DNA of 59,726 nt, filler included. It is 4 parts of 4 records of this genome, joined end to end, with 100 filler letters (N's around TTAATTAATTAA, not from the genome) between each part and the next. Parts side by side here need not be neighbours in the genome. Positions count along the whole stretch, not along the records: positions 26,732 to 32,757 come from SRR31156797_197; 3 more parts are not named here. One strand, written 5' to 3'. Positions 26,632-33,748 of the stretch are shown piece by piece (position 1 is the first letter of the stretch; the number at the start of each line of letters is the position of its first letter). The position numbers were made by a program, and so were the translations under genes. Below the pieces are notes generated by a model. That model saw nothing but the letters and a program-made list of their open reading frames with translations. It ran no database searches and was not told where the DNA came from.

Positions 26632-26731
26632 NNNNNNNNNNNNNNNNNNNNNNNNNNNNNNNNNNNNNNNNNNNNTTAATTAATTAANNNNNNNNNNNNN
26701 NNNNNNNNNNNNNNNNNNNNNNNNNNNNNNN
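26632..26731. other. Artificial contig spacer (N44-TTAATTAATTAA-N44)
   Basis: N runs around a 12-mer with stops in all frames; abrupt compositional change on either side. Confidence 0.98.
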
Positions 26732-27321
26732 TCATTAAACGATTGAAAGTTCCATGTTTGTGATACCGGACGAACCACATTTGCAATTTGCTGTTTCAGA
26801 TTTCCCTTTTCGAATTCAACCGGTTTTAAGCTGTAAACTCCTTTCTTTTCTTTTTCATTGGTAGGTGCTAAACCAAACTTCTGTTCCAGTTCCCGACAAA
26901 TACGCATGGATAAACGGTGCTGAAAATTGTCCCGTATCATTTTACCTGTTTCATCAATTTTTACAGAAACAATATGCAAATGGTGTCGGTCAATGTCTTC
27001 ATGCTTGAACACTATGTAGGGTTGATTTCCATAGCCGAGTTTTTCCATGTATTGTTCAGCCATCTGAGAGAACTGTTCATCGTTTAGCTTATCCCTTGGA
27101 TCGGGATTTAACGAAATATGAATAACCGGATTTTCAGTTCGTTTATTGGCACTTAAATAAGGCTCAAAAGAACTCGTGCATAAACCAATTGAATACTTTC
27201 CATCAAAAGGTTCAACCATTTTATTGACCATTAAAACAGAAGCAGCATCCTTTTTTAGCTTATCTTGATTGTATGCCAATGCACTGTAAATCGAACTTCC
27301 TGAACTTATTTTTGCAACCAT
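26732..27321 (-). CDS. mobB: Relaxase MobB, 3' truncated at contig end
   Basis: MVAKISSGSSIYSALAYNQ (Tyr motif), HISLNPDP and VFKHEDIDRHHLHIVS (HUH motif). Confidence 0.92.
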
Positions 27322-27737
27322 CTTTCCTCAAATTCTTTGGTTAAATCCAGTATCTTTTGGTTTATAGCTACCAATTGAAATGTCGCTTTCTGTAATTGCG
27401 CAATAAAAGCCAGTGCCTTTTTCTCCGCAAAATTGTTTTTTATTGCTTTGGTAACCTGATTGTAGTTCACTCCAATCGCCCTGAATTGCGAATAAAATGA
27501 GGTCAGACGCATATAATAATCCATCGATCCCTTATCTATTTTTACCACTTTAACGGGTTTGTCAAATATACAGGCAGTAATAAAATGCGCTTTAATTTCC
27601 ATTCCCGACGCCTCAAAAAGAGTAAGGAAACGTGCATTGTCAACATCATTTAAGCTAATTGCATAACGATGTATACACGGATCTTTTTTCGGTTTCCGGC
27701 CTCCTTTGTGTTTGTTCTTTCTGCTTTCTGTTTTCAT
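27306..27737 (-). CDS. mobA: Conjugal transfer protein MobA (relaxosome accessory)
   Basis: KGGRKPKKDP...RFLTLFEASG...YYMRLTSFYSQFRAIGVNYNQV; overlaps the mobB start. Confidence 0.88.
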   Translation of the reverse strand: MKTESRKNKHKGGRKPKKDPCIHRYAISLNDVDNARFLTLFEASGMEIKAHFITACIFDKPVKVVKIDKGSMDYYMRLTSFYSQFRAIGVNYNQVTKAIKNNFAEKKALAFIAQLQKATFQLVAINQKILDLTKEFEERWLQK

Positions 27738-27780
27738 TGTTTTTATAGCATTAGACCACATCAAAAAATTTAGCAAAAAT

Positions 27781-27890
27781 CACACGACTTCGGAGTGATG
27801 ATTTTCCCCAACGGGGCAAGTGGTTTCGGGTAACCCGGAACGTTTTGAGTTACTCAAAACACAACTTGCCGTGTGCCAGTGCACACCTTG
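27781..27890. other. Putative oriT region
   Basis: Clustered inverted repeats upstream of mobA (TTCGGGTAACCCGGA; GTTTTGAGT-T-ACTCAAAAC at 27842-27860) followed by ACAACTTGCC, resembling MOBP-type nic sites. Confidence 0.55.
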
Positions 27891-28417
27891 TAGCGTTACG
27901 ATATAAATTATTGGACATAGCCGTTTTGTATTCATGTTTTTATTCTTAAAAAATTGTTGGGAACAAAGGTAGAATGGGGTTTTTGAATTCTAATTATACG
28001 CAAATGAGCCAAATAAAGACAGTAAAGGACAAGTACTTCCAACGGTTTAAAAAGTGAAGTTTTGATAGCTTTTTATTTGTTCATTTGACTCGGTACATGC
28101 AGAATTATTTAATGATTGGTATAACGATTAAAAGAATTATAAGAACGAACAAAACAGGATTTAAACAAGGAGCAAATGAAATATTGAGGAACCGATTTAT
28201 GGACAATCTTCAATAATTAGGAAAAACGATAATTAAGCAGTTAAGTGATGTGATACTTCAACGCTGAAACGTTGCAACGCTTCATTAATTAAACGTTTCA
28301 ACACAAACTGATTTATACAACCAGTTAATCGTTTATTGATTCAGCCATTTTCCTATTTGAATGAATATCGAACTAAGTAAATACTGAAATAGAAGATTAA
28401 CCTATAAAATAAAGATC

Positions 28418-29179
28418 ATGGAAAAAGAAACATTATTTATTGCATTCAGCACACAAAAAGGAGGTGTTGGGAAAACAGCTTTTACTGTTTTAATGTCGAG
28501 TTATCTGCACTATGTAAAAGGTTTGGAAATTGGAGTTGTGGATTGCGATTATCCGCAGCACAGTATTGCCGAAATGCGCCGGCGCGATATGGAACAGGTG
28601 ATGAAAGACAGTTTTTATAAGCAAATGGCTTACAAGCAATTTACCACACAGAAGCGAAAGGCATACCCGGTTGAAAAAAGTATGCCTGAGGATGCCATTG
28701 ATGTAGCAGAAAATCTGATCGATGCTGCAACGACTCAACCCGATATAATATTTTTCGATCTTCCCGGAACTTTAAATAGTAGAGGTGTGGTTAAAACGCT
28801 GGGCGGAATGGATTATATCTTTTCGCCGGTAAGTGCCGACCGAGTGGTAATGGAAAGCACTTTAAAATATGCTACGATGTTAAATGAAAATCTGATAAGT
28901 GTTGGCAAAAGTGATATCAAAGGATTGTACCTTATCTGGAATATGGTGGATGGCCGGGAGAAAAACGAACTCTACGATGTATATGAAAATGTAATCGGCG
29001 AGTTGGGCTTAAATATTCTGAAAACTTTTGTGCCTGACTCAAAACGTTTTCGACGGGAACTCACTTCCGTTCATAAGCCGGTATTTCGCTCAACACTTTT
29101 TCCGGCCCACAACAGCCTTTTAAAAGGAAGTAACCTGATTGCGCTGGCTGATGAAATCCTAAAAACCATAAAACTGTAA
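28418..29179 (+). CDS. ParA-family ATPase (CTn TraA-like)
   Basis: STQKGGVGKT deviant Walker A, VVDCDYPQHS and FFDLPGT. Confidence 0.92.
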   Translation: MEKETLFIAFSTQKGGVGKTAFTVLMSSYLHYVKGLEIGVVDCDYPQHSIAEMRRRDMEQVMKDSFYKQMAYKQFTTQKRKAYPVEKSMPEDAIDVAENLIDAATTQPDIIFFDLPGTLNSRGVVKTLGGMDYIFSPVSADRVVMESTLKYATMLNENLISVGKSDIKGLYLIWNMVDGREKNELYDVYENVIGELGLNILKTFVPDSKRFRRELTSVHKPVFRSTLFPAHNSLLKGSNLIALADEILKTIKL

Positions 29180-29184
29180 AAGAC

Positions 29185-29550
29185 ATGGCACGAAAGAAAT
29201 ACAATCCAGACGAGATAGATGAAGAATTTATCATCTCAACGATTCAGAATGAAAAACCGGATTCTGAGAAGCCCAGGGAGCAAAAAGCTAAACCTACAGC
29301 AAAAAAGAAGAAGACCAATCAAGCTTATGATGAACTCTTCCTTTCAGATTCCAAAACGAAAGCACGTTTTGGGAAGAATGTTCCCATTCGACAAGAATAC
29401 CATAAACGGATTCAGCAGATTATTCGCGTGATTGGTAAGGACGAAATTTCGATTTATAACTATATAGATAATGTGTTGACACATCATTTTGACGAATTTC
29501 AGACGGAAATTGTCAAGCAATATAACGAAAACAATGAAGGCATTTTTTAA
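29185..29550 (+). CDS. DUF3408-family protein (CTn TraB-like)
   Basis: ARFGKNVPIRQEYHKRIQQII...SIYNYIDNVLTHHF; follows traA. Confidence 0.85.
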   Translation: MARKKYNPDEIDEEFIISTIQNEKPDSEKPREQKAKPTAKKKKTNQAYDELFLSDSKTKARFGKNVPIRQEYHKRIQQIIRVIGKDEISIYNYIDNVLTHHFDEFQTEIVKQYNENNEGIF

Positions 29551-29565
29551 CCCAAACCGGAAGTT

Positions 29566-30117
29566 ATGATTGAATTTGTTGTAACAGTAGGCTTAATCAT
29601 CCTGCTACGTATTTTCTTTAAGGATTGGAGGCGTTCTTCGGCTACAGTTGCCAATGAAGAAAGAAAAAGCGATTTATCAGATGATAGCGAAATTATTGGA
29701 AGAAGCACCTTCGTTTTGAATACGGAGAGAATAAGTCAATCCTCTTCAAATTCCACAGGTAAGCTGGATGTTGAAGTCGCTCTGGATTATGAGGATGTTG
29801 AGCTCGATGAAGAATTGGAGGAGCTTGGTATTGCCAACGGAACTTCGGTTGATCTGACTTTTGAAGAAATGATGGAGGTGGTTACCGAGGTTGAAAATGA
29901 GCAATCGGAAAAGCCATCTCAAACAGGGAAGTTACTTTATGAAAATGAAAATACCGATTGGGTAGAGCAAATGGCATCAACTTCCGAAAGCTACCAAAAA
30001 CGGATTTCGGATTTAATTGAGATACATTTGGGAAGCCTGGAGCAAACCCAGGTTTCTGTTCTGGATGATGGGGGTGATGTGTTTGATATTAGGAAGTATC
30101 TTAGTAAAACACCATAA
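29566..30117 (+). CDS. Acidic single-TM protein (DUF4122-like CTn accessory)
   Basis: N-terminal TM, IIGRSTF, acidic middle and C-terminal FDIRKYL; position after DUF3408. Confidence 0.6.
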   Translation: MIEFVVTVGLIILLRIFFKDWRRSSATVANEERKSDLSDDSEIIGRSTFVLNTERISQSSSNSTGKLDVEVALDYEDVELDEELEELGIANGTSVDLTFEEMMEVVTEVENEQSEKPSQTGKLLYENENTDWVEQMASTSESYQKRISDLIEIHLGSLEQTQVSVLDDGGDVFDIRKYLSKTP

Positions 30118-30153: not shown

Positions 30154-30345
30154 TTAAAACAGCAATGTTTGTTTATCAATCTCATTCTGGATCTTGTCCG
30201 TAATTGATTTATAAAATGCAGAACAACAATAGTTACCTATAACTATAACACCGTTAGCAACCTGAAACGACGCAGTTTTGTTGTGTTCAGGACATTTCTC
30301 GGATTTAACTCGATCGATTACTTTGTTTAAAAAATTCTTATTCAT
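30154..30345 (-). CDS. Small protein with CxxH...CC putative Zn site; last gene of the defence cassette
   Basis: 63 aa with CPEH and YCC; ATG 8 nt after the E2 stop. Confidence 0.65.
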   Translation of the reverse strand: MNKNFLNKVIDRVKSEKCPEHNKTASFQVANGVIVIGNYCCSAFYKSITDKIQNEIDKQTLLF

Positions 30346-30353
30346 AACATTAA

Positions 30354-30815
30354 TTAATCTATGTTTCTATTTACATTTCTTTCGCTTTCTGTAAAGTGAG
30401 TTGGCGATTCTCGACCTTCCCATTTATTGCCATTTATTAAATATAATTCGTAATACACAATCCATTCAATAAGCCATGGAATTGTATATTCATGAATCAA
30501 AATTTTTTCATTCCAGGGTAAATCCGGTGGATAGTGCAGACAAAGACTATGATCTTGATACATATGAATTTCTCTACATGGTTCAATGTTTGGTTCAAGA
30601 ATGGTTGTTTTAGGTTCACATCCTGCTACATATTCTATTCTTACCTTATACCGACTTTTGCACCCTTCAGGTTTTACAAATCCTGTGCAAACTAACACCT
30701 TCTTCTCTATCCTGCATTTTAGAAATTTAAAATGGCTTTCAACTTGTTTTCTTTGTTTTACAAGCAGAGCATATTTATTATACCTTAATCCTCTAATGAA
30801 TATCTTATTCGTCAT
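30354..30815 (-). CDS. Stand-alone prokaryotic E2 (ubiquitin-conjugating-like) enzyme of CBASS type II-short kind
   Basis: YKVRIEY...PK, HMYQDHSLCLHYP (HxY...LCL catalytic Cys), W...YTIPWLIEWIVYYELY...G.KWEG. Start overlaps the cyclase stop by 11 nt. Confidence 0.8.
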   Translation of the reverse strand: MTNKIFIRGLRYNKYALLVKQRKQVESHFKFLKCRIEKKVLVCTGFVKPEGCKSRYKVRIEYVAGCEPKTTILEPNIEPCREIHMYQDHSLCLHYPPDLPWNEKILIHEYTIPWLIEWIVYYELYLINGNKWEGRESPTHFTESERNVNRNID

Positions 30816-31875
30816 AGTGAAACCTATGGTTTTGATTTTTTACTCCATCAGAAGCGCCTGAAATATTTCCGTGCGAATCAGTAAATGCATTACCACAAGT
30901 TATTAAAGTTGCTGCCTGACGAAGCCTTTTTCTTCTGTCATCCTCTGATTCATAGTACAAACTTCCATCTTCATCTTGTGTGATATACGGTAGGTTTTTC
31001 AAGAATTCATACCATTTAAAATCCAAAACTTTGTAGTAAAAACTTTTGGCTGGGTTCTCAAATATATAGCGTTTCTTGATTTCACCTTTATAGTTTTTTA
31101 CCCAGTCGTACAAGGTATCATCAAGTTCTGATACTGACTTAATATTATCCCCAACTGCAATGCTATTTGCATTTGCGATTGCTTGCATTTTAGATGCAAG
31201 ACTAGTGTGTAAGCTGTATGTAGTAATCTCACTACATGCTCCAATTCCTGCTACAGCCCAAAGAACGGATTCATCATAGCCAAAATCGATTCCTATGCGC
31301 GTATGAATATCTTCAATACCTTCTTCTTCAAATAGTTTCTTTAAATCGTTTTTTACAAAATACGTGAAGAAACTTGTTGCAGTTAATGCACTTATTACGG
31401 CTTGTTTTTTCTCAACATTTTTACCCCCAAAATAAACAAATACACCATCACCTTGTAAACGCTGTATATACCCCCCAAGAATTGCACAGGTATGTATAGC
31501 AGCTCGTTGAATGACGTTTGTAATATTTTTAATTATATCAACAGGGTATTTACGAAACATACCAGTTGAATTTTTTATGTCAATAAAAACAGATGTAATA
31601 TAATGGTATTCAGTCTTACTTGTATTTCTTAGATAGGCAAAGTCAGGATGTTCGCCAAGCCTTTGATTTTTTATTTCTGTTTTCCCAACCGCATTCATTA
31701 ATGGAACTAAACTCTGATTTGGTTGAACATTGACTATAATTCCTTTACTGCTATCGTAAAGTCCTTCAATACCTTCTATCCCTTTCTTAATTGACCTTGA
31801 GGAATCAGTAAATGCACTAAGATTACCTGAAAGTGCACCTTTTATTTCATCAATATAGTTTTGGTATAATTTCAT
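30805..31875 (-). CDS. pycC: Class III nucleotidyl cyclase, PycC-like (Pycsar pyrimidine cyclase)
   Basis: Metal-binding VFIDIKNST and QRLQGDG; RIGIDFG...VLW, SEITT, ASKMQ and upstream GEHPDF as I recall for PycC; directly follows a DUF5706 effector. Confidence 0.82.
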   Translation of the reverse strand: MKLYQNYIDEIKGALSGNLSAFTDSSRSIKKGIEGIEGLYDSSKGIIVNVQPNQSLVPLMNAVGKTEIKNQRLGEHPDFAYLRNTSKTEYHYITSVFIDIKNSTGMFRKYPVDIIKNITNVIQRAAIHTCAILGGYIQRLQGDGVFVYFGGKNVEKKQAVISALTATSFFTYFVKNDLKKLFEEEGIEDIHTRIGIDFGYDESVLWAVAGIGACSEITTYSLHTSLASKMQAIANANSIAVGDNIKSVSELDDTLYDWVKNYKGEIKKRYIFENPAKSFYYKVLDFKWYEFLKNLPYITQDEDGSLYYESEDDRRKRLRQAATLITCGNAFTDSHGNISGASDGVKNQNHRFHYDE

Positions 31876-31878
31876 TTT

Positions 31879-32382
31879 TTAATAATTAAGTGAATAAATA
31901 ACTGTGAAAATCACTATTACAATTGCTTGTAAAGCAATAAGACGTGATGCAACTCTGATTCTAAAAAATTTTTGCTTTAAACCTTTGGCTAACTGATGGG
32001 CTTGGCCTACAAGGTCATTATTGAACTCTTCAGGAGCTTGTTTTAAACACCTGAATATATACTCATCAAGGTTCTGGTTTGCAACATCCTCAAAATAGTA
32101 AACCGAAGATGTATTCTTAATTACCTTTTTACCCAAAAAAGGTTTAACCGCCGATAGTGTAAACAAGATCGAACCAAGACAAATTGCTAGTTCCACAAAA
32201 AATAGAATGTTAAGAACTCCACATAAATTAATATCAGAACTTAAAGAAAGGTATCCTGTAATAACTCCTCCAATTATAAATGTGTTAAGGGCTAAATATA
32301 GATTACTCTTACTGTTAATCCCTTCATAGTAATGATCATATCGACCAATGATAAATTTAATTTCTTCAGATAATTGTCCCAT
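31879..32382 (-). CDS. pycTM: Pycsar transmembrane effector (PycTM, DUF5706-like)
   Basis: 167 aa: INSKSNLYL, TM, TM ending SAVKP, SSVYYFEDVA, QAHQLAKGLKQKF and a C-terminal TM, the DUF5706 layout. Stop lies 3 nt before the cyclase start. Confidence 0.8.
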   Translation of the reverse strand: MGQLSEEIKFIIGRYDHYYEGINSKSNLYLALNTFIIGGVITGYLSLSSDINLCGVLNILFFVELAICLGSILFTLSAVKPFLGKKVIKNTSSVYYFEDVANQNLDEYIFRCLKQAPEEFNNDLVGQAHQLAKGLKQKFFRIRVASRLIALQAIVIVIFTVIYSLNY

Positions 32383-32385
32383 TAG

Positions 32386-32556
32386 TTACTCCTTTCGTAC
32401 CCCTTTAAATGGTTTGTCACTTGATGTTTTTACATCCATAAATCTCCCGGGTTCAGAATCGCGTTTTGTCCAAAGCCCGGTTTTTGGATTTTTTACCTGA
32501 GAACGCTGTCTTACTGCTCCTTTTCTACTTCCATCTTTGGGTGGATTTGTTGCCAT
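32386..32556 (-). CDS. 56-aa Lys/Arg-rich small protein, first gene of the cassette
   Basis: Not in the ORF track. Manual translation: MATNPPKDGSRKGAVRQRSQVKNPKTGLWTKRDSEPGRFMDVKTSSDKPFKGVRKE*. Stop is 3 nt before the effector ATG. Confidence 0.75.
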   Translation of the reverse strand: MATNPPKDGSRKGAVRQRSQVKNPKTGLWTKRDSEPGRFMDVKTSSDKPFKGVRKE

Positions 32557-32757: not shown

Positions 32758-32857
32758 NNNNNNNNNNNNNNNNNNNNNNNNNNNNNNNNNNNNNNNNNNN
32801 NTTAATTAATTAANNNNNNNNNNNNNNNNNNNNNNNNNNNNNNNNNNNNNNNNNNNN
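32758..32857. other. Artificial contig spacer
   Basis: N44-TTAATTAATTAA-N44. Confidence 0.98.
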
Positions 32858-33748
32858 TACCAAATCTTCATCAATCCCAATTACTTTACCAAAGCCTTCA
32901 CATTTTGGACAGGCACCAACGGGATTGTTAAAACTAAAAGTGTGTACATTAGGATCTTCAAAAACAATTCCATCTGCTTCAAATCGATTTGAGAATTTAT
33001 AACTCACGTCTCGAAACGAAATTAAGCATTCACCGTTACCTTCGTAAAAGGCAGTTTGTAAAGAATCGGCAATTCTATTTTGCGTATCCTCGTCATCGGA
33101 AACTCTTATTCTATCAATAACGATATGAATTGCTTCTTTGTCAGGGATAATTTCTGGAGCTTCTAAAGCGTCATGAATTTTATGAATTTGACCATTAATT
33201 TCAATTCTGGAGAATCCTTGTTTTGATAAAACTTCCAGTTGTTCTTTTTTGCTACGATCGGAATTTTGCATTTCTGCCAATATCATAACGGGAAGATCCT
33301 TCTTCTGCTTTAATATGAAATTAACAACGTCAGTAATAGTATGACGTTTTACCAAAGCATTGGAAATAGGAGAATAGGTTTTTCCAATTCGAGCAAAAAG
33401 CAACTTTAAATAGTCATAAATTTCGGTAGAGGTTCCAACCGTTGAGCGCGGGTTTCTGGTATTTACCTTTTGTTCTATCGCAATAGCAGGAGGAATTCCT
33501 TTTATAAAATCAACCTCAGGTTTATCAATTCTACCCAAAAATTGTCTTGCGTAGGCAGATAAACTTTCAACATATCTTCTTTGTCCTTCAGCATAAAGTG
33601 TATCGAATGCTAAAGATGATTTTCCAGAACCGGATAAACCAGTAATAACAATGAATTGATTCCTTGGAATCTTTAAATCAATGTTTTTTAAATTGTGCAC
33701 TCTAGCACCTTTAATATGAATGTAGTCTTCGCTTATCTTATCAGTCAT
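32858..33748 (-). CDS. uvrA: Excinuclease ABC subunit A, 3' truncated
   Basis: GARVHNLKNI, TGLSGSGKSSLAFDTLYAEGQRRYVESLS, NPRSTVGT and FSFNNPVGACPKCEG. Confidence 0.96.

What the first reader, a model, noticed from the sequence alone, without database searches (positions are those of the whole stretch)
30805..30960. PycC-like cyclase carries a CD-NTase-style C-terminal tail instead of an AGS-C domain
Seen: after the catalytic core the 356-aa protein ends in ...RRKRLRQAATLITCGNAFTDSHGNISGASDGVKNQNHRFHYDE, a helix, a Gly/Ser-rich linker and an HRFHY motif, with no room for AGS-C. From recollection, E2-associated clade G CD-NTases end in a similar H/N-x-F-[YH]-G-(x) tail that the E2 trims and conjugates. 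Inference: this tail is the E2 substrate acquired by domain swap. Tyr where Gly is expected suggests different chemistry or non-covalent docking.
Basis: partly seen in the sequence, partly recalled or inferred. Interest (0 to 1): 0.75.

Follow-up and report, generated by a model that had tools for sequence, protein, structure and literature searches.

The report
Pycsar cyclase with E2-docking tail
A phage-defence cyclase that probably makes cyclic CMP ends in a short tail of the kind that CBASS enzymes use to dock onto a small ubiquitin-E2-like partner, the partner gene lies right behind it, and the glycine normally used for attachment is missing.

Summary
Window 30805-31875(-) encodes a 356-aa PycC. 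It is closest to the solved clade-E cytidylate cyclase EaPycC (8jsf). PycTM precedes it and a 153-aa stand-alone E2 follows, overlapping by 11 nt.

Residues ~311-356 form a helix plus three short strands ending HRFHYDE. This tail is present in 119 of 120 listed homologues.

Evidence that it is homologous to the tails of CD-NTases that sit before the same kind of E2:
- a PADLOC profile of a fused cyclase-E2 matches it (E 7e-5);
- hhalign gives 96.7 %, with controls flat;
- the tail model's best match among 48,161 PDB chains is SmCdnG 353-406, though weakly (Z 3.2).

A tail+E2 complex model scores 0.65 against 0.02 for the best control.

Across 18 PycC loci from sampled genomes the C-terminal module predicts the partner:
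- 4 of 4 HRFH tails have this E2;
- 11 of 11 "KPY" tails have a different, longer E2;
- 3 of 3 long C-termini (two confirmed AGS-C) have none.

E2 Cys92, His84 and His140 are invariant (69 of 69), but the conjugation Gly is not conserved. The E2 start codon lies inside the Tyr354-Asp355 codons.

Covalent chemistry is untested. I rate this a new variant of a known kind.

The parts
31879..32382 (-). PycTM membrane effector (167 aa)
   Evidence: Pfam PF18967 PycTM 1.2e-09. PADLOC 2TM effector PDLC00700 1.1e-45 and PycTM PDLC02364 3.4e-29. A PycTM homologue is present in 18 of 18 sampled PycC loci.
30946..31875 (-). PycC cyclase core, residues 1-310 (predicted cytidylate cyclase)
   Evidence: PADLOC PDLC00767 1.5e-118. 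PDB 8jsf_A 1.5e-86. Foldseek 8jsf E 8e-29, TM by target 0.89. F97, R139 and Q141 align with EaPycC's CTP-specificity residues F100, R142 and Q144, and D99/D143 with catalytic D102/D146 (alignment; residues from PMC11224242 passages). F97, D99, R139 and D143 are invariant and Q141 is >=90 % conserved.
30808..30945 (-). C-terminal E2-docking tail, residues 311-356: helix 311-327, three short strands, HRFHYDE end
   Evidence: PADLOC fused cyclase-E2 profile PDLC00816 positions 362-404 match residues 312-354, E 7.1e-05. hhalign against CD-NTase tails 96.7 %. AF2 secondary structure. VIA-align rank 1 is 8hsb_A 353-406, Z 3.2. Complex model contacts 311-328 and 344-355.
30814..30828 (-). H350-R-F-H-Y354 motif
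   Evidence: H350, F352 and H353 invariant, R351 >=90 %. F352, H353 and Y354 are the residues modelled against E2 Cys92 and His84. Codons read directly.
30813..30815 (-). E2 start codon ATG, made of the last two bases of the Tyr354 codon and the first base of the Asp355 codon
   Evidence: The same TAT-G overlap occurs in 4 of 5 PycC-E2 loci, and a [TAT/CAT]-G overlap in 7 of 12 CD-NTase-E2 loci.
30354..30815 (-). Stand-alone E2-like protein (153 aa); Cys92 at 30540-30542, His84 at 30564-30566, His140 at 30396-30398
   Evidence: PADLOC E2 PDLC00862 6.2e-44, and the E2 half of PDLC00816 6.8e-48. PDB 8hsb_B (SmE2) 5.4e-07 with Cys92 aligned to the SmE2 catalytic Cys. H84, C92 and H140 are each 69 of 69. 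Homologues carry precomputed PF26395.
32386..32556 (-). Small basic protein (56 aa) upstream of PycTM; possible accessory, membership uncertain
   Evidence: PADLOC PDC-S38 6.7e-31. A homologue lies upstream of PycTM in 4 of 18 sampled PycC loci, whose flanks reach only about 1.5 kb.
30154..30345 (-). 63-aa ORF downstream of E2; probably not part of the system
   Evidence: No Pfam or PADLOC hit. Found in 1 of 18 loci, only in the copy of the same mobile element in L001.

Best explanation
This is a three-gene Pycsar operon, PycTM - PycC - E2, carried on a mobilizable element. The cyclase is a clade-E-type PycC, and its specificity residues predict that it makes cCMP.

In place of the AGS-C domain or the 'KPY' tail of its relatives, it carries a ~46-residue module of a helix plus a small beta-sheet. 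This module is homologous to the C-terminal module by which CD-NTases of E2-only CBASS bind their E2. The tail and the E2 gene form one DNA cassette, because the E2 start codon lies inside the last tail codons. The cassette appears to have moved between CD-NTase and PycC genes.

Inferred mechanism, by analogy with Serratia CdnG-E2:
1. The E2 grips the helix/sheet.
2. It threads the HRFHY end into its groove next to Cys92 and His84.
3. It thereby controls cyclase output, which then opens the PycTM membrane effector and aborts infection.

What is shown: homology of the tail, its covariation with the E2, and retention of the E2 catalytic residues.

What is inferred: binding is supported only by a model, and any covalent step is inferred. 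I put about 0.8 on the tail being the E2-docking module. I put about 0.4 on Cys92 forming an acyl bond after cutting off the last residues, most likely behind Tyr354. The confidence of 0.75 given for this explanation refers to the docking-module claim.
For: Operon and families.

Tail conservation: 119 of 120 listed homologues; invariant H350, F352 and H353.

Homology to CD-NTase tails:
- PDLC00816 hit, E 7.1e-05, placed directly before that profile's E2 half.
- Local hhalign of 120 PycC tails against 12 CD-NTase tails: probability 96.7 %, E 4.5e-10, score 44.6. With -M 50 the score is 30.3. The reversed alignment scores 10.2, and 20 column shuffles score at most 10.3.
- A tail profile searched over 1.84 billion representatives gave 93 hits: 56 CD-NTases, 3 CD-NTase-E2 fusions, 4 PycC and 30 unclassified. 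The unclassified ones are 29 fragments and one 1232-aa repeat protein. No other enzyme family appeared.
- VIA-align of the tail model against 48,161 chains: rank 1 is 8hsb_A, Z 3.2, rmsd 4.4 A, 44 residues, chain range 353-406. That is the region which PMC12948482 (Results read) describes as the E2-binding helix plus three-stranded sheet.

Covariation in 18 distinct PycC loci from three genome samples of 401, 401 and 391 genomes (read):
- 4 of 4 HRFH-type tails have this E2 directly downstream.
- 11 of 11 [K/R/Q]P[Y/W/S]-type tails have a 214-249-aa E2 of another family (PDLC00833, tested for 3 of them).
- 3 of 3 long C-termini have no E2. AGS_C was confirmed for 2 of these.

30 of 84 E2 clusters share a longest-contig length with a PycC cluster.

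E2 tree: PycC-linked E2s form one clade (support 95/92). Its nearest neighbours are the E2s of L004 and L007, whose CD-NTases end HRFYGE.

Complex model: score 0.65, best of 3 controls 0.02. This mark was reached by 51 of 78 solved complexes and 2 of 108 mismatched pairs. The runs agree in at least 71 % of contacts, and the partner pLDDT is at least 56. Cys92 and His84 touch F352, H353 and Y354.

E2 catalytic residues: H84, C92 and H140 are each 69 of 69. They align with or correspond to SmE2 H87, C101 and H152 (roles from bioRxiv 10.1101/2022.05.25.493364, sections 4 and 6).
Against: - No experiment was done; binding rests on a model. A like complex is solved (8hsb, 8yjy, 9kkb), so the pass may reflect likeness rather than show that this pair binds.
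- The structural match is weak: Z 3.2, and only 5 chains reach Z>=2. Foldseek found nothing for the tail. An hmmsearch of the full PycC profile against PDB sequences did not reach SmCdnG at E<=10.
- The conjugation Gly, present in 83 of 84 CD-NTase-type tails, is absent here. There is no Gly in the last 12 residues. In the family the residue after the Tyr is E 63, G 40, D 10, A 3, V 2. In SmcGAS, G406V and G406L abolish linkage.
- This E2 has no Lys after K131. The position that is Lys in 42 of 69 homologues is Arg here.
- The 18 loci are phylogenetically related, so the covariation counts are not independent events.
Confidence: 0.75

Rival explanations
1. Docking without chemistry. The tail binds the E2 non-covalently, and the E2 acts as a regulatory subunit that holds the cyclase off or on. 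No cleavage, thioester or isopeptide forms, because the Gly has been lost.
For: - There is no Gly at the tail end of the window protein. Residue 355 takes any amino acid whose codon begins with G: E 63, G 40, D 10, A 3, V 2, and none other among 118. This fits the overlapping E2 start codon rather than a protein-level need.
- No Lys acceptor is conserved in the E2 C-terminus: position 146 is K 42, M 11, R 9, Q 6, F 1, and 14 of 69 have no Lys after His140.
- SmCdnG also needs extensive non-covalent interfaces before linkage (PMC12948482 Results).
Against: Cys92, His84 and His140 are each invariant in 69 of 69 E2s whose listed identity to the window E2 goes down to 49 %. That is hard to explain without catalysis. 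Position 354 is Y 104, H 9, C 3, F 2, L 1. It is never Asn or Asp, although AAT and GAT would equally give the ATG, so the residue next to the Cys is selected at the protein level.
Confidence: 0.3
2. Conjugation at residue 355. Asp355 (Gly, Glu, Ala or Val in relatives) is the true counterpart of the CD-NTase Gly and remains the residue that is linked. This E2 clade would have relaxed or acidic P1 specificity, and only Glu356 would be removed.
For: The DNA junction is the same as in the closest CD-NTase operons. L004 and L007 read TTT TAT GGA GAA TAA, and the window reads TTT CAC TAT GAC GAA TAA. In both the E2 ATG lies at -11. The simplest history is therefore one inserted His codon plus Gly->Asp. 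40 of 119 homologues keep Tyr-Gly.
Against: A P1 site that accepts Gly, Glu, Asp, Ala and Val would be unusually lax, given that SmcGAS G406V and G406L abolish linkage. 34 of 119 proteins end at that residue. This alone is not decisive, because SmcGAS lacking E407 still links. In the complex model the lowest-error contacts of Cys92 and His84 are with 352-354, not 355.
Confidence: 0.12
3. The tail is a clade-specific extension of the cyclase, for example for dimer contacts or stability. It has no functional tie to the E2, and the resemblance to CD-NTase tails is convergent or chance.
For: The tail is short, sequence identity to the CD-NTase tails is 9-32 %, and the structural Z is low.
Against: Profile-profile score is far above the reversed and shuffled controls. 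The profile search recovers CD-NTases and PycC and no other enzyme family among classifiable hits, with the match at the C-terminus or just before a fused E2. Tail type and E2 type covary strictly in 18 loci. The gene overlap is shared.
Confidence: 0.03

Closest known systems
E2-CBASS (type II 'short' CBASS): Serratia marcescens CdnG/cGAS with SmE2 (PDB 8hsb, 8yjy, 9kkb)
   Same: - A stand-alone ~150-160-aa E2 of the same family (PADLOC) with the Cys/His/His set.
- The signalling enzyme carries a C-terminal helix plus small sheet followed by an H-x-F-aromatic end.
- The E2 gene lies directly downstream and often overlaps the tail codons.
- A membrane or other effector sits in the same operon.
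   Different: - The enzyme is a class III PycC cyclase, not a CD-NTase.
- The predicted signal is cCMP, not a cyclic dinucleotide.
- The tail has one residue more (HRF-H-Y) and lacks the conserved Gly.
- This copy's E2 has no C-terminal Lys like SmE2 K159.
Clade E Pycsar, EaPycC cytidylate cyclase of Elizabethkingia anophelis (PDB 8jsf; PMC11224242, passages read)
   Same: Cyclase core with the same CTP-specificity and catalytic residues. Foldseek E 8e-29. PycTM-type effector.
   Different: The alignment with 8jsf ends at residue 308-321. The 342-residue chain has no room for this tail. Sampled relatives of that type end in a 'KPY'-like tail and are followed by a different 214-249-aa E2-like protein.
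Type II CBASS / 'Type II Pycsar' with Cap2-like E1-E2 fusion and Cap3 JAB peptidase (PMC11601596, passages read); 'Pycsar-like-4' subclade (bioRxiv 10.64898/2026.08.12.744502, section 5 read)
   Same: A ubiquitin-system enzyme is attached to a nucleotide-signalling defence cyclase. The association of Pycsar-like cyclases with E2-like genes is already in print in outline.
   Different: There is no E1 domain, no JAB domain and no JAB gene here. That preprint predicts ATP preference for Pycsar-like-4, whereas this cyclase has the CTP residues of clade E. Neither text describes a CdnG-like tail on the cyclase. Which accessions they included is in supplements that I could not see.
AGS-C-bearing PycC (Pycsar-2 of the 2026 preprint)
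   Same: Same cyclase family and PycTM partner. The C-terminal module starts at the same junction, about residue 307-321.
   Different: The module there is a ~110-130-residue AGS_C sensor domain and no E2 follows.

Membership tests
Pycsar (PycC + effector) | Class III nucleotide cyclase of the PycC family | tested here: met
   PDLC00767 1.5e-118; PF00211 above its cut-off; 8jsf best PDB match.
Pycsar (PycC + effector) | Catalytic Asp pair and, for clade E, the CTP-specificity residues (EaPycC D102/D146; F100/R142/Q144) | tested here: met
   D99/D143 and F97/R139/Q141 by the alignment. Invariant or >=90 % conserved. Residue roles from PMC11224242 passages.
Pycsar (PycC + effector) | Cyclic-nucleotide-activated effector in the operon | tested here: met
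   PycTM PF18967 and PADLOC effector models.
Pycsar (PycC + effector) | cCMP or cUMP synthesis and phage defence | not testable with these tools
   Needs enzyme assay and plaque assays.
E2-CBASS | Signalling enzyme is a CD-NTase | tested here: not met
   No CD-NTase core. The only match to an oligonucleotide-cyclase model is the tail (PDLC00816, residues 312-354).
E2-CBASS | Stand-alone E2 with catalytic Cys plus the two His residues special to E2-only systems | tested here: met
   PDLC00862 6.2e-44; 8hsb_B 5.4e-07; C92, H84 and H140 each 69 of 69; roles.
E2-CBASS | C-terminal helix plus three-stranded sheet on the cyclase that recruits the E2 | tested here: met
   Met at the sequence and profile level and by predicted secondary structure. 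The 3D match to 8hsb_A 353-406 ranks first but is weak, Z 3.2.
E2-CBASS | Conserved Gly at the tail end as the linked residue | tested here: not met
   The window ends HRFHYDE. In the family the position after Tyr is Gly in 40 of 119. 83 of 84 CD-NTase-type tails have aromatic-Gly.
E2-CBASS | E2-dependent trimming and covalent linkage of the cyclase | not testable with these tools
   Needs gels and mass spectrometry.
Type II Pycsar / type II CBASS (Cap2-Cap3 type) | E1 (adenylation) domain fused to the E2, and a JAB peptidase | tested here: not met
   The E2 is 153 aa with only E2 models matching. The neighbouring ORFs have no such hits.
AGS-C-bearing PycC | PF18134 AGS_C domain after the cyclase | tested here: not met
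   No hit at E<=0.1. Relatives L022 and L028 do hit it.

The most novel reading that the evidence does not exclude
The E2 of this Pycsar uses its Cys92/His84 protease-like site to cut the cyclase behind Tyr354 and carries it as a tyrosyl thioester. That would be a ubiquitin-like transfer that starts from a bulky aromatic C-terminus instead of glycine and needs no E1 or ATP. cCMP signalling would then be primed by self-conjugation of the cyclase, as poly-cGASylation does in E2-CBASS. A parallel, unrelated tail/E2 pair (the 'KPY' tail plus a 214-249-aa E2) in the sister PycC lineage would make E2 control a general feature of clade-E Pycsar.
Probability: 0.3. Interest if true: 0.8.

Novelty: new variant of a known kind. 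Interest (0 to 1): 0.62.

Why it matters
E2-only CBASS showed that a bacterial E2 alone can process, carry and ligate its cyclase through a C-terminal Gly. Here the same tail-plus-E2 cassette is grafted onto an unrelated cyclase class. This suggests the cassette is a portable regulator of signalling enzymes.

It also gives a natural experiment on the chemistry. The catalytic Cys and both His residues are strictly kept, yet the Gly is gone. Either an E2 can work on a non-glycine C-terminus, or the catalytic residues serve another purpose. Both outcomes would be informative for how ubiquitin-like conjugation arose.

Practically, Pycsar annotation would miss the third gene, because PADLOC's E2 models are described under CBASS. 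Clade-E Pycsar systems tested as two genes may therefore have been tested without their regulator.

Tried and rejected
- Foldseek of the isolated tail model against the PDB gave no match at E<=0.001, and the top rows were unrelated.
- hmmsearch of the full-length PycC profile (A1) against PDB sequences found cyclases only and did not reach SmCdnG at E<=10.
- phmmer of PycC against PDB likewise found 8jsf and CyaB only.
- The search for related loci in genome contigs with the single protein returned only 1 locus and used the cap.
- Five attempts at the metagenome scan did not complete. I replaced them with three genome search samples.
- No whole genome is held for the window.
- I first argued that the linked residue must be followed by a leaving group, which would have excluded residue 355 for the 34 proteins that end there. 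I dropped this as decisive for two reasons. Yan et al. report that SmcGAS lacking E407 still links. Some CD-NTase tails end at the Gly.
- I considered a PycC-E2 fusion as extra evidence. None appeared among the 120 listed PycC homologues, and the 3 fusions among the tail-profile hits were all CD-NTase-E2. The 546 unlisted hits were not seen.
- Burroughs et al. 2015 and Tal et al. 2021 are not held, so what they say about E2 next to cyclases is recalled or cited second-hand only.
- Searches for prior description: 'Pycsar'+'ubiquitin'+'Cap2' gave 12 papers. 'Pycsar'+'E2-like'+'cyclase' gave 3. 'PycC'/'PycTM'/'E2 domain' gave 7. 'Type II Pycsar' gave 2 records listed as one paper. 'E2-CBASS'+'Pycsar' gave 0. 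In the passages I read, none describes a CdnG-like tail on a PycC.
Full report
WHAT IS THERE

On the minus strand the window carries a tight gene row:
- a 56-aa basic protein, 32386-32556 (PADLOC candidate PDC-S38, 6.7e-31);
- PycTM, 31879-32382 (PF18967; PADLOC 2TM effector 1.1e-45);
- a 356-aa cyclase, 30805-31875 (PADLOC PycC PDLC00767, 1.5e-118 over residues 1-322; Pfam PF00211);
- a 153-aa protein, 30354-30815 (PADLOC E2 PDLC00862, 6.2e-44);
- a 63-aa ORF with no hit.

The quoted C-terminal sequence is exactly what the DNA encodes. The cyclase stop and the E2 start overlap by 11 nt.

The row is flanked on one side by a MobA/VirD2 relaxase, MobC_2, ParA and DUF3408 genes. The same element occurs in a Draconibacterium MAG contig, L001, with PycC 81 % and E2 84 % identical. 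The system therefore rides on a mobilizable element.

THE CYCLASE CORE

The best solved relative is 8jsf (phmmer 1.5e-86; Foldseek 8e-29 with TM by target 0.89). This is EaPycC, the clade-E cytidylate cyclase of Elizabethkingia (PMC11224242, passages read). Its CTP-specificity residues F100, R142 and Q144 and its catalytic D102 and D146 correspond to F97, R139, Q141, D99 and D143 here (alignment). Four of these are invariant and Q141 is at least 90 % conserved in 110 sequences. I therefore predict cCMP as the product. This is inference from residues, not an assay.

THE TAIL IS REAL AND CONSERVED

Of 666 database homologues at E<=1e-5, the best 120 were listed. 119 of those 120 end with H-[RKHS]-[FS]-H plus one more residue and then a short extension. 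The exception is a 244-aa fragment.

I aligned the window protein with 109 of the 120. The 11 dropped were P0002, P0005, P0026, P0034, P0041, P0046, P0050, P0063, P0068, P0103 and P0107, which were near-duplicates or truncated. L318, H350, F352 and H353 are invariant, and A330, G336, I338, G344 and R351 are at least 90 % conserved.

AF2 on that alignment (mean pLDDT 87) gives helix 311-327 and three two-residue strands, with pLDDT 84-89 for residues 311-350 and 62 for the last six.

No AGS_C hit exists at E<=0.1. Two relatives hit PF18134 from residue ~307-321 onward.

THE TAIL IS THE CD-NTase/E2 TAIL

Five lines of evidence point the same way.

1. PADLOC's profile of a fused oligonucleotide cyclase-E2 (PDLC00816, 542 positions) matches PycC residues 312-354 at positions 362-404 (E 7.1e-05). 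It matches the E2 at positions 410-541 (6.8e-48). The two window proteins thus line up as the two consecutive parts of one fused protein.

2. I searched 401 genomes of the phylum of L001's genome with the E2, and 15 had a match. The gene directly upstream is a PycC in 2, a CD-NTase in 12 (all 12 confirmed with PADLOC), and fused to a CD-NTase in 1. All 12 CD-NTases end [H/T/K/N]-x-[F/N]-[Y/H/E/F]-G plus 1-5 residues. Two of them (L004, L007) end HRFYGE and share the preceding helix and strand pattern with PycC.

3. Local hhalign of 120 PycC tails against these 12 tails gives 96.7 % probability, E 4.5e-10 and score 44.6 over 41 columns. With another column rule the score is 30.3. The reversed alignment scores 10.2, and 20 column shuffles score at most 10.3.

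4. A profile of 16 tails, searched against 1.84 billion representatives, found 93 proteins at E<=0.001. By phmmer against my references these are 56 CD-NTases, 3 CD-NTase-E2 fusions, 4 PycC and 30 unclassifiable. The unclassifiable ones are 29 fragments of 52-168 aa and one 1232-aa repeat protein. The match lies at or within a few residues of the C-terminus, or before the fused E2. No third enzyme class turned up among classifiable hits.

5. The tail alone (AF2, pLDDT 84) was aligned to 48,161 PDB representatives. The first of only five chains with Z>=2 is 8hsb_A, the Serratia CdnG of the CdnG-E2 complex. Residues 353-406 of that chain align to PycC 307-354 (Z 3.2, rmsd 4.4 A, 44 residues). 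The Z is weak and would mean little alone. But that region is the one which PMC12948482 (Results and Discussion read) describes as a helix plus three-stranded sheet, unique to E2-linked CD-NTases, that recruits the E2. Foldseek found nothing.

TAIL TYPE FOLLOWS PARTNER TYPE

Three genome samples were searched with PycC:
- phylum sample, 6 of 401 genomes with a match;
- class sample, 8 of 401;
- order of G288, 9 of 391.

After removing repeats and two >1000-aa unrelated cyclases of G446, 18 distinct loci remained. All 18 have a PycTM. They split as follows:
- Four have an HRFH-type tail (G001, G288, G533, G910), and all four have this E2 directly downstream.
- Eleven have a different end, ...[K/R/Q]-P-[Y/W/S]..., and all eleven are followed by a 214-249-aa protein. 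For the three I scanned, this protein matches other PADLOC E2 models (PDLC00833, up to 3e-97). It has an H-x4-G-x-C-C-L motif and mostly a C-x-C-G...C-[HC] end.
- Three have a long C-terminus and no E2 in the locus. AGS_C was confirmed for two; the third was judged by similarity only.

The loci were read. One genome, G392, has a 'KPY' PycC and, 1.3 Mb away, a CD-NTase with the short E2.

These loci are related, so the counts are not independent events. Even so, no exception was seen. As a weaker check, 30 of 84 E2 protein clusters share their longest-contig length with one of the 120 PycC clusters.

In an E2 tree of 29 rows (midpoint root for drawing only), the PycC-linked E2s form one clade (support 95/92). 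The divergent L025 is next (86/60, long branch), then the E2s of L004 and L007 (87/75), then L005 and L006. This matches the tail similarities and suggests that tail and E2 moved together. The direction of transfer needs a rooted, larger tree.

THE E2

It matches SmE2 (8hsb_B, 5.4e-07), with Cys92 aligned to the SmE2 active-site Cys and His84 to the His in the ...pHLY... stretch.

Yan et al. (bioRxiv 10.1101/2022.05.25.493364; abstract and sections 4 and 6 read) report the following for SmE2:
- C101 and H87 are needed for cleavage and linkage.
- H152 tunes isopeptide/thioester interconversion.
- K159 takes the isopeptide.
- G406 of cGAS is the linked residue. G406A is tolerated; G406V and G406L are not; loss of E407 is harmless.

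In 69 PycC-type E2s (the window plus 68 of the 84 hits, those of at least 140 aa), H84, C92 and H140 are each 69 of 69. Position 146 is K 42, M 11, R 9, Q 6, F 1. The window E2 has Arg there and no Lys at all after K131.

COMPLEX MODEL

The E2 plus PycC 296-356 scored 0.65 (three runs: 0.65, 0.67, 0.65) against 0.02 for the best of three controls. That mark was reached by 51 of 78 solved complexes and 2 of 108 mismatched pairs. The runs agree in at least 71 % of contacts, and the partner pLDDT is at least 56.

The interface uses the helix (311-328) and the end (344-355). Cys92 and His84 touch F352, H353 and Y354. Because a like complex is solved, this shows likeness and supports binding; it does not prove that this pair binds.

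WHICH RESIDUE STANDS FOR THE GLYCINE?

Two registers are possible.

Register B: the DNA says otherwise. In the window, L001 and L018 the E2 ATG is formed by the last two bases of the Tyr codon and the first base of the next codon, 11 nt before the end of the cyclase ORF. In L004 and L007 the ATG sits in the same way across the Tyr-Gly codons, also at -11, followed by the same GAA TAA. The simplest history is one inserted His codon (His353) with Gly changed to Asp.

The overlap also explains a striking pattern. The residue after Tyr is E 63, G 40, D 10, A 3, V 2 and nothing else in 118 proteins. These are exactly the five amino acids whose codons start with G. The residue before it is Y 104, H 9, C 3, F 2, L 1, all compatible with ATG, GTG or TTG. 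Asn and Asp, which would also give ATG, never occur at 354. Position 354 is therefore selected as protein, while position 355 looks constrained mainly by the start codon.

Either way the strict Gly of CD-NTase tails (83 of 84) is not kept. From the free variation at 355 and the model contacts, I think a cut behind Tyr354 is the likeliest covalent scenario. Non-covalent docking is the main rival.

COMPARISON WITH PRINT

- That some Pycsar-like cyclases sit next to E2, E1-E2 and JAB genes is in print: PMC11601596 mentions 'Type II Pycsar' (passages), and bioRxiv 10.64898/2026.08.12.744502 section 5 describes 'Pycsar-like-4', citing Burroughs 2015.
[quoted passage not shown] Neither text mentions a CdnG-like tail.
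- No held paper contains both 'E2-CBASS' and 'Pycsar'.
- Supplementary tables, Burroughs 2015 and Tal 2021 could not be read, so prior listing of this family cannot be excluded.

VERDICT

This is an E2-only regulatory cassette of the E2-CBASS kind, attached to a Pycsar cytidylate-type cyclase. It has a conserved catalytic E2 but no conserved glycine. I class it as a new variant of a known kind and worth a bench test.

Noticed in passing
L019:2508-3149(+), L020:2492-3193(+), L021:729-1406(-); also L023, L026, L027, L032, L034-L037: The sister PycC lineage, closest to the solved EaPycC type, ends in a different conserved tail (...P-I-A..-K-P-Y-F-like). In 11 of 11 sampled loci it is followed by a 214-249-aa E2-like protein (PADLOC PDLC00833/00865; H-x4-G-x-C-C-L motif; mostly a SEC-C-like C-x-C-G...C-H end). 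Clade-E Pycsar may therefore generally be a three-gene system with an E2 partner, in two unrelated tail/E2 versions.
   Followed up: partly
window 30813-30815 and the same junction in L001, L018, L025, L004-L007, L010, L011, L015: The E2 start codon is built from the aromatic-residue codon (TAT or CAT) plus the first G of the next codon. This holds in 4 of 5 PycC-E2 loci and 7 of 12 CD-NTase-E2 loci. Tail end and E2 start are thus one piece of DNA, and the residue after the aromatic is restricted to G-first codons (G, E, D, A, V).
   Followed up: yes
window 32386-32556 (-): A 56-aa basic protein (PADLOC candidate PDC-S38, 6.7e-31) lies just upstream of PycTM. Homologues sit in the same place in 4 of 18 sampled PycC loci, of both E2 types (L001, L018, L019, L020). 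The loci reach only about 1.5 kb upstream, so this is a lower bound.
   Followed up: partly
window 30154-30345 (-): A 63-aa ORF with Cys/His pairs lies right after the E2. It is conserved only in the copy of the same element in L001 (5533-5724), has no family hit, and is absent from the other 17 loci.
   Followed up: partly
window 26680-30117 and L001 5803-7541: The defence operon lies beside MobA/VirD2 relaxase, MobC_2, ParA and DUF3408 genes. The same gene set, at 81-88 % protein identity for the defence genes, is in a Draconibacterium MAG contig. This looks like a mobilizable element carrying the system.
   Followed up: partly
window about 26680-26730 and 32760-32860: Runs of N (read as X in the translated ORFs) cut the relaxase, a sigma-like ORF and the UvrA-like ORF. 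The ends of the element could therefore not be read.
   Followed up: no
P0217 (1232 aa): A long protein matches positions 25-53 of the tail profile in 10 separate stretches. It is probably a repeat protein with a similar strand-turn motif. It was not classified.
   Followed up: no
P0291: One CD-NTase-type tail ends ...NFHAEDE, with Ala where the other 83 have Gly. This is in line with the reported tolerance of SmcGAS G406A.
   Followed up: no
L033 (G910), L025 (G533): Two divergent PycC-E2 loci break the usual end. L033 ends HRFHFNDKI with the E2 start after the stop and no overlap. L025 ends HNFHYDPFK with a 132-aa E2 on a very long tree branch.
   Followed up: partly
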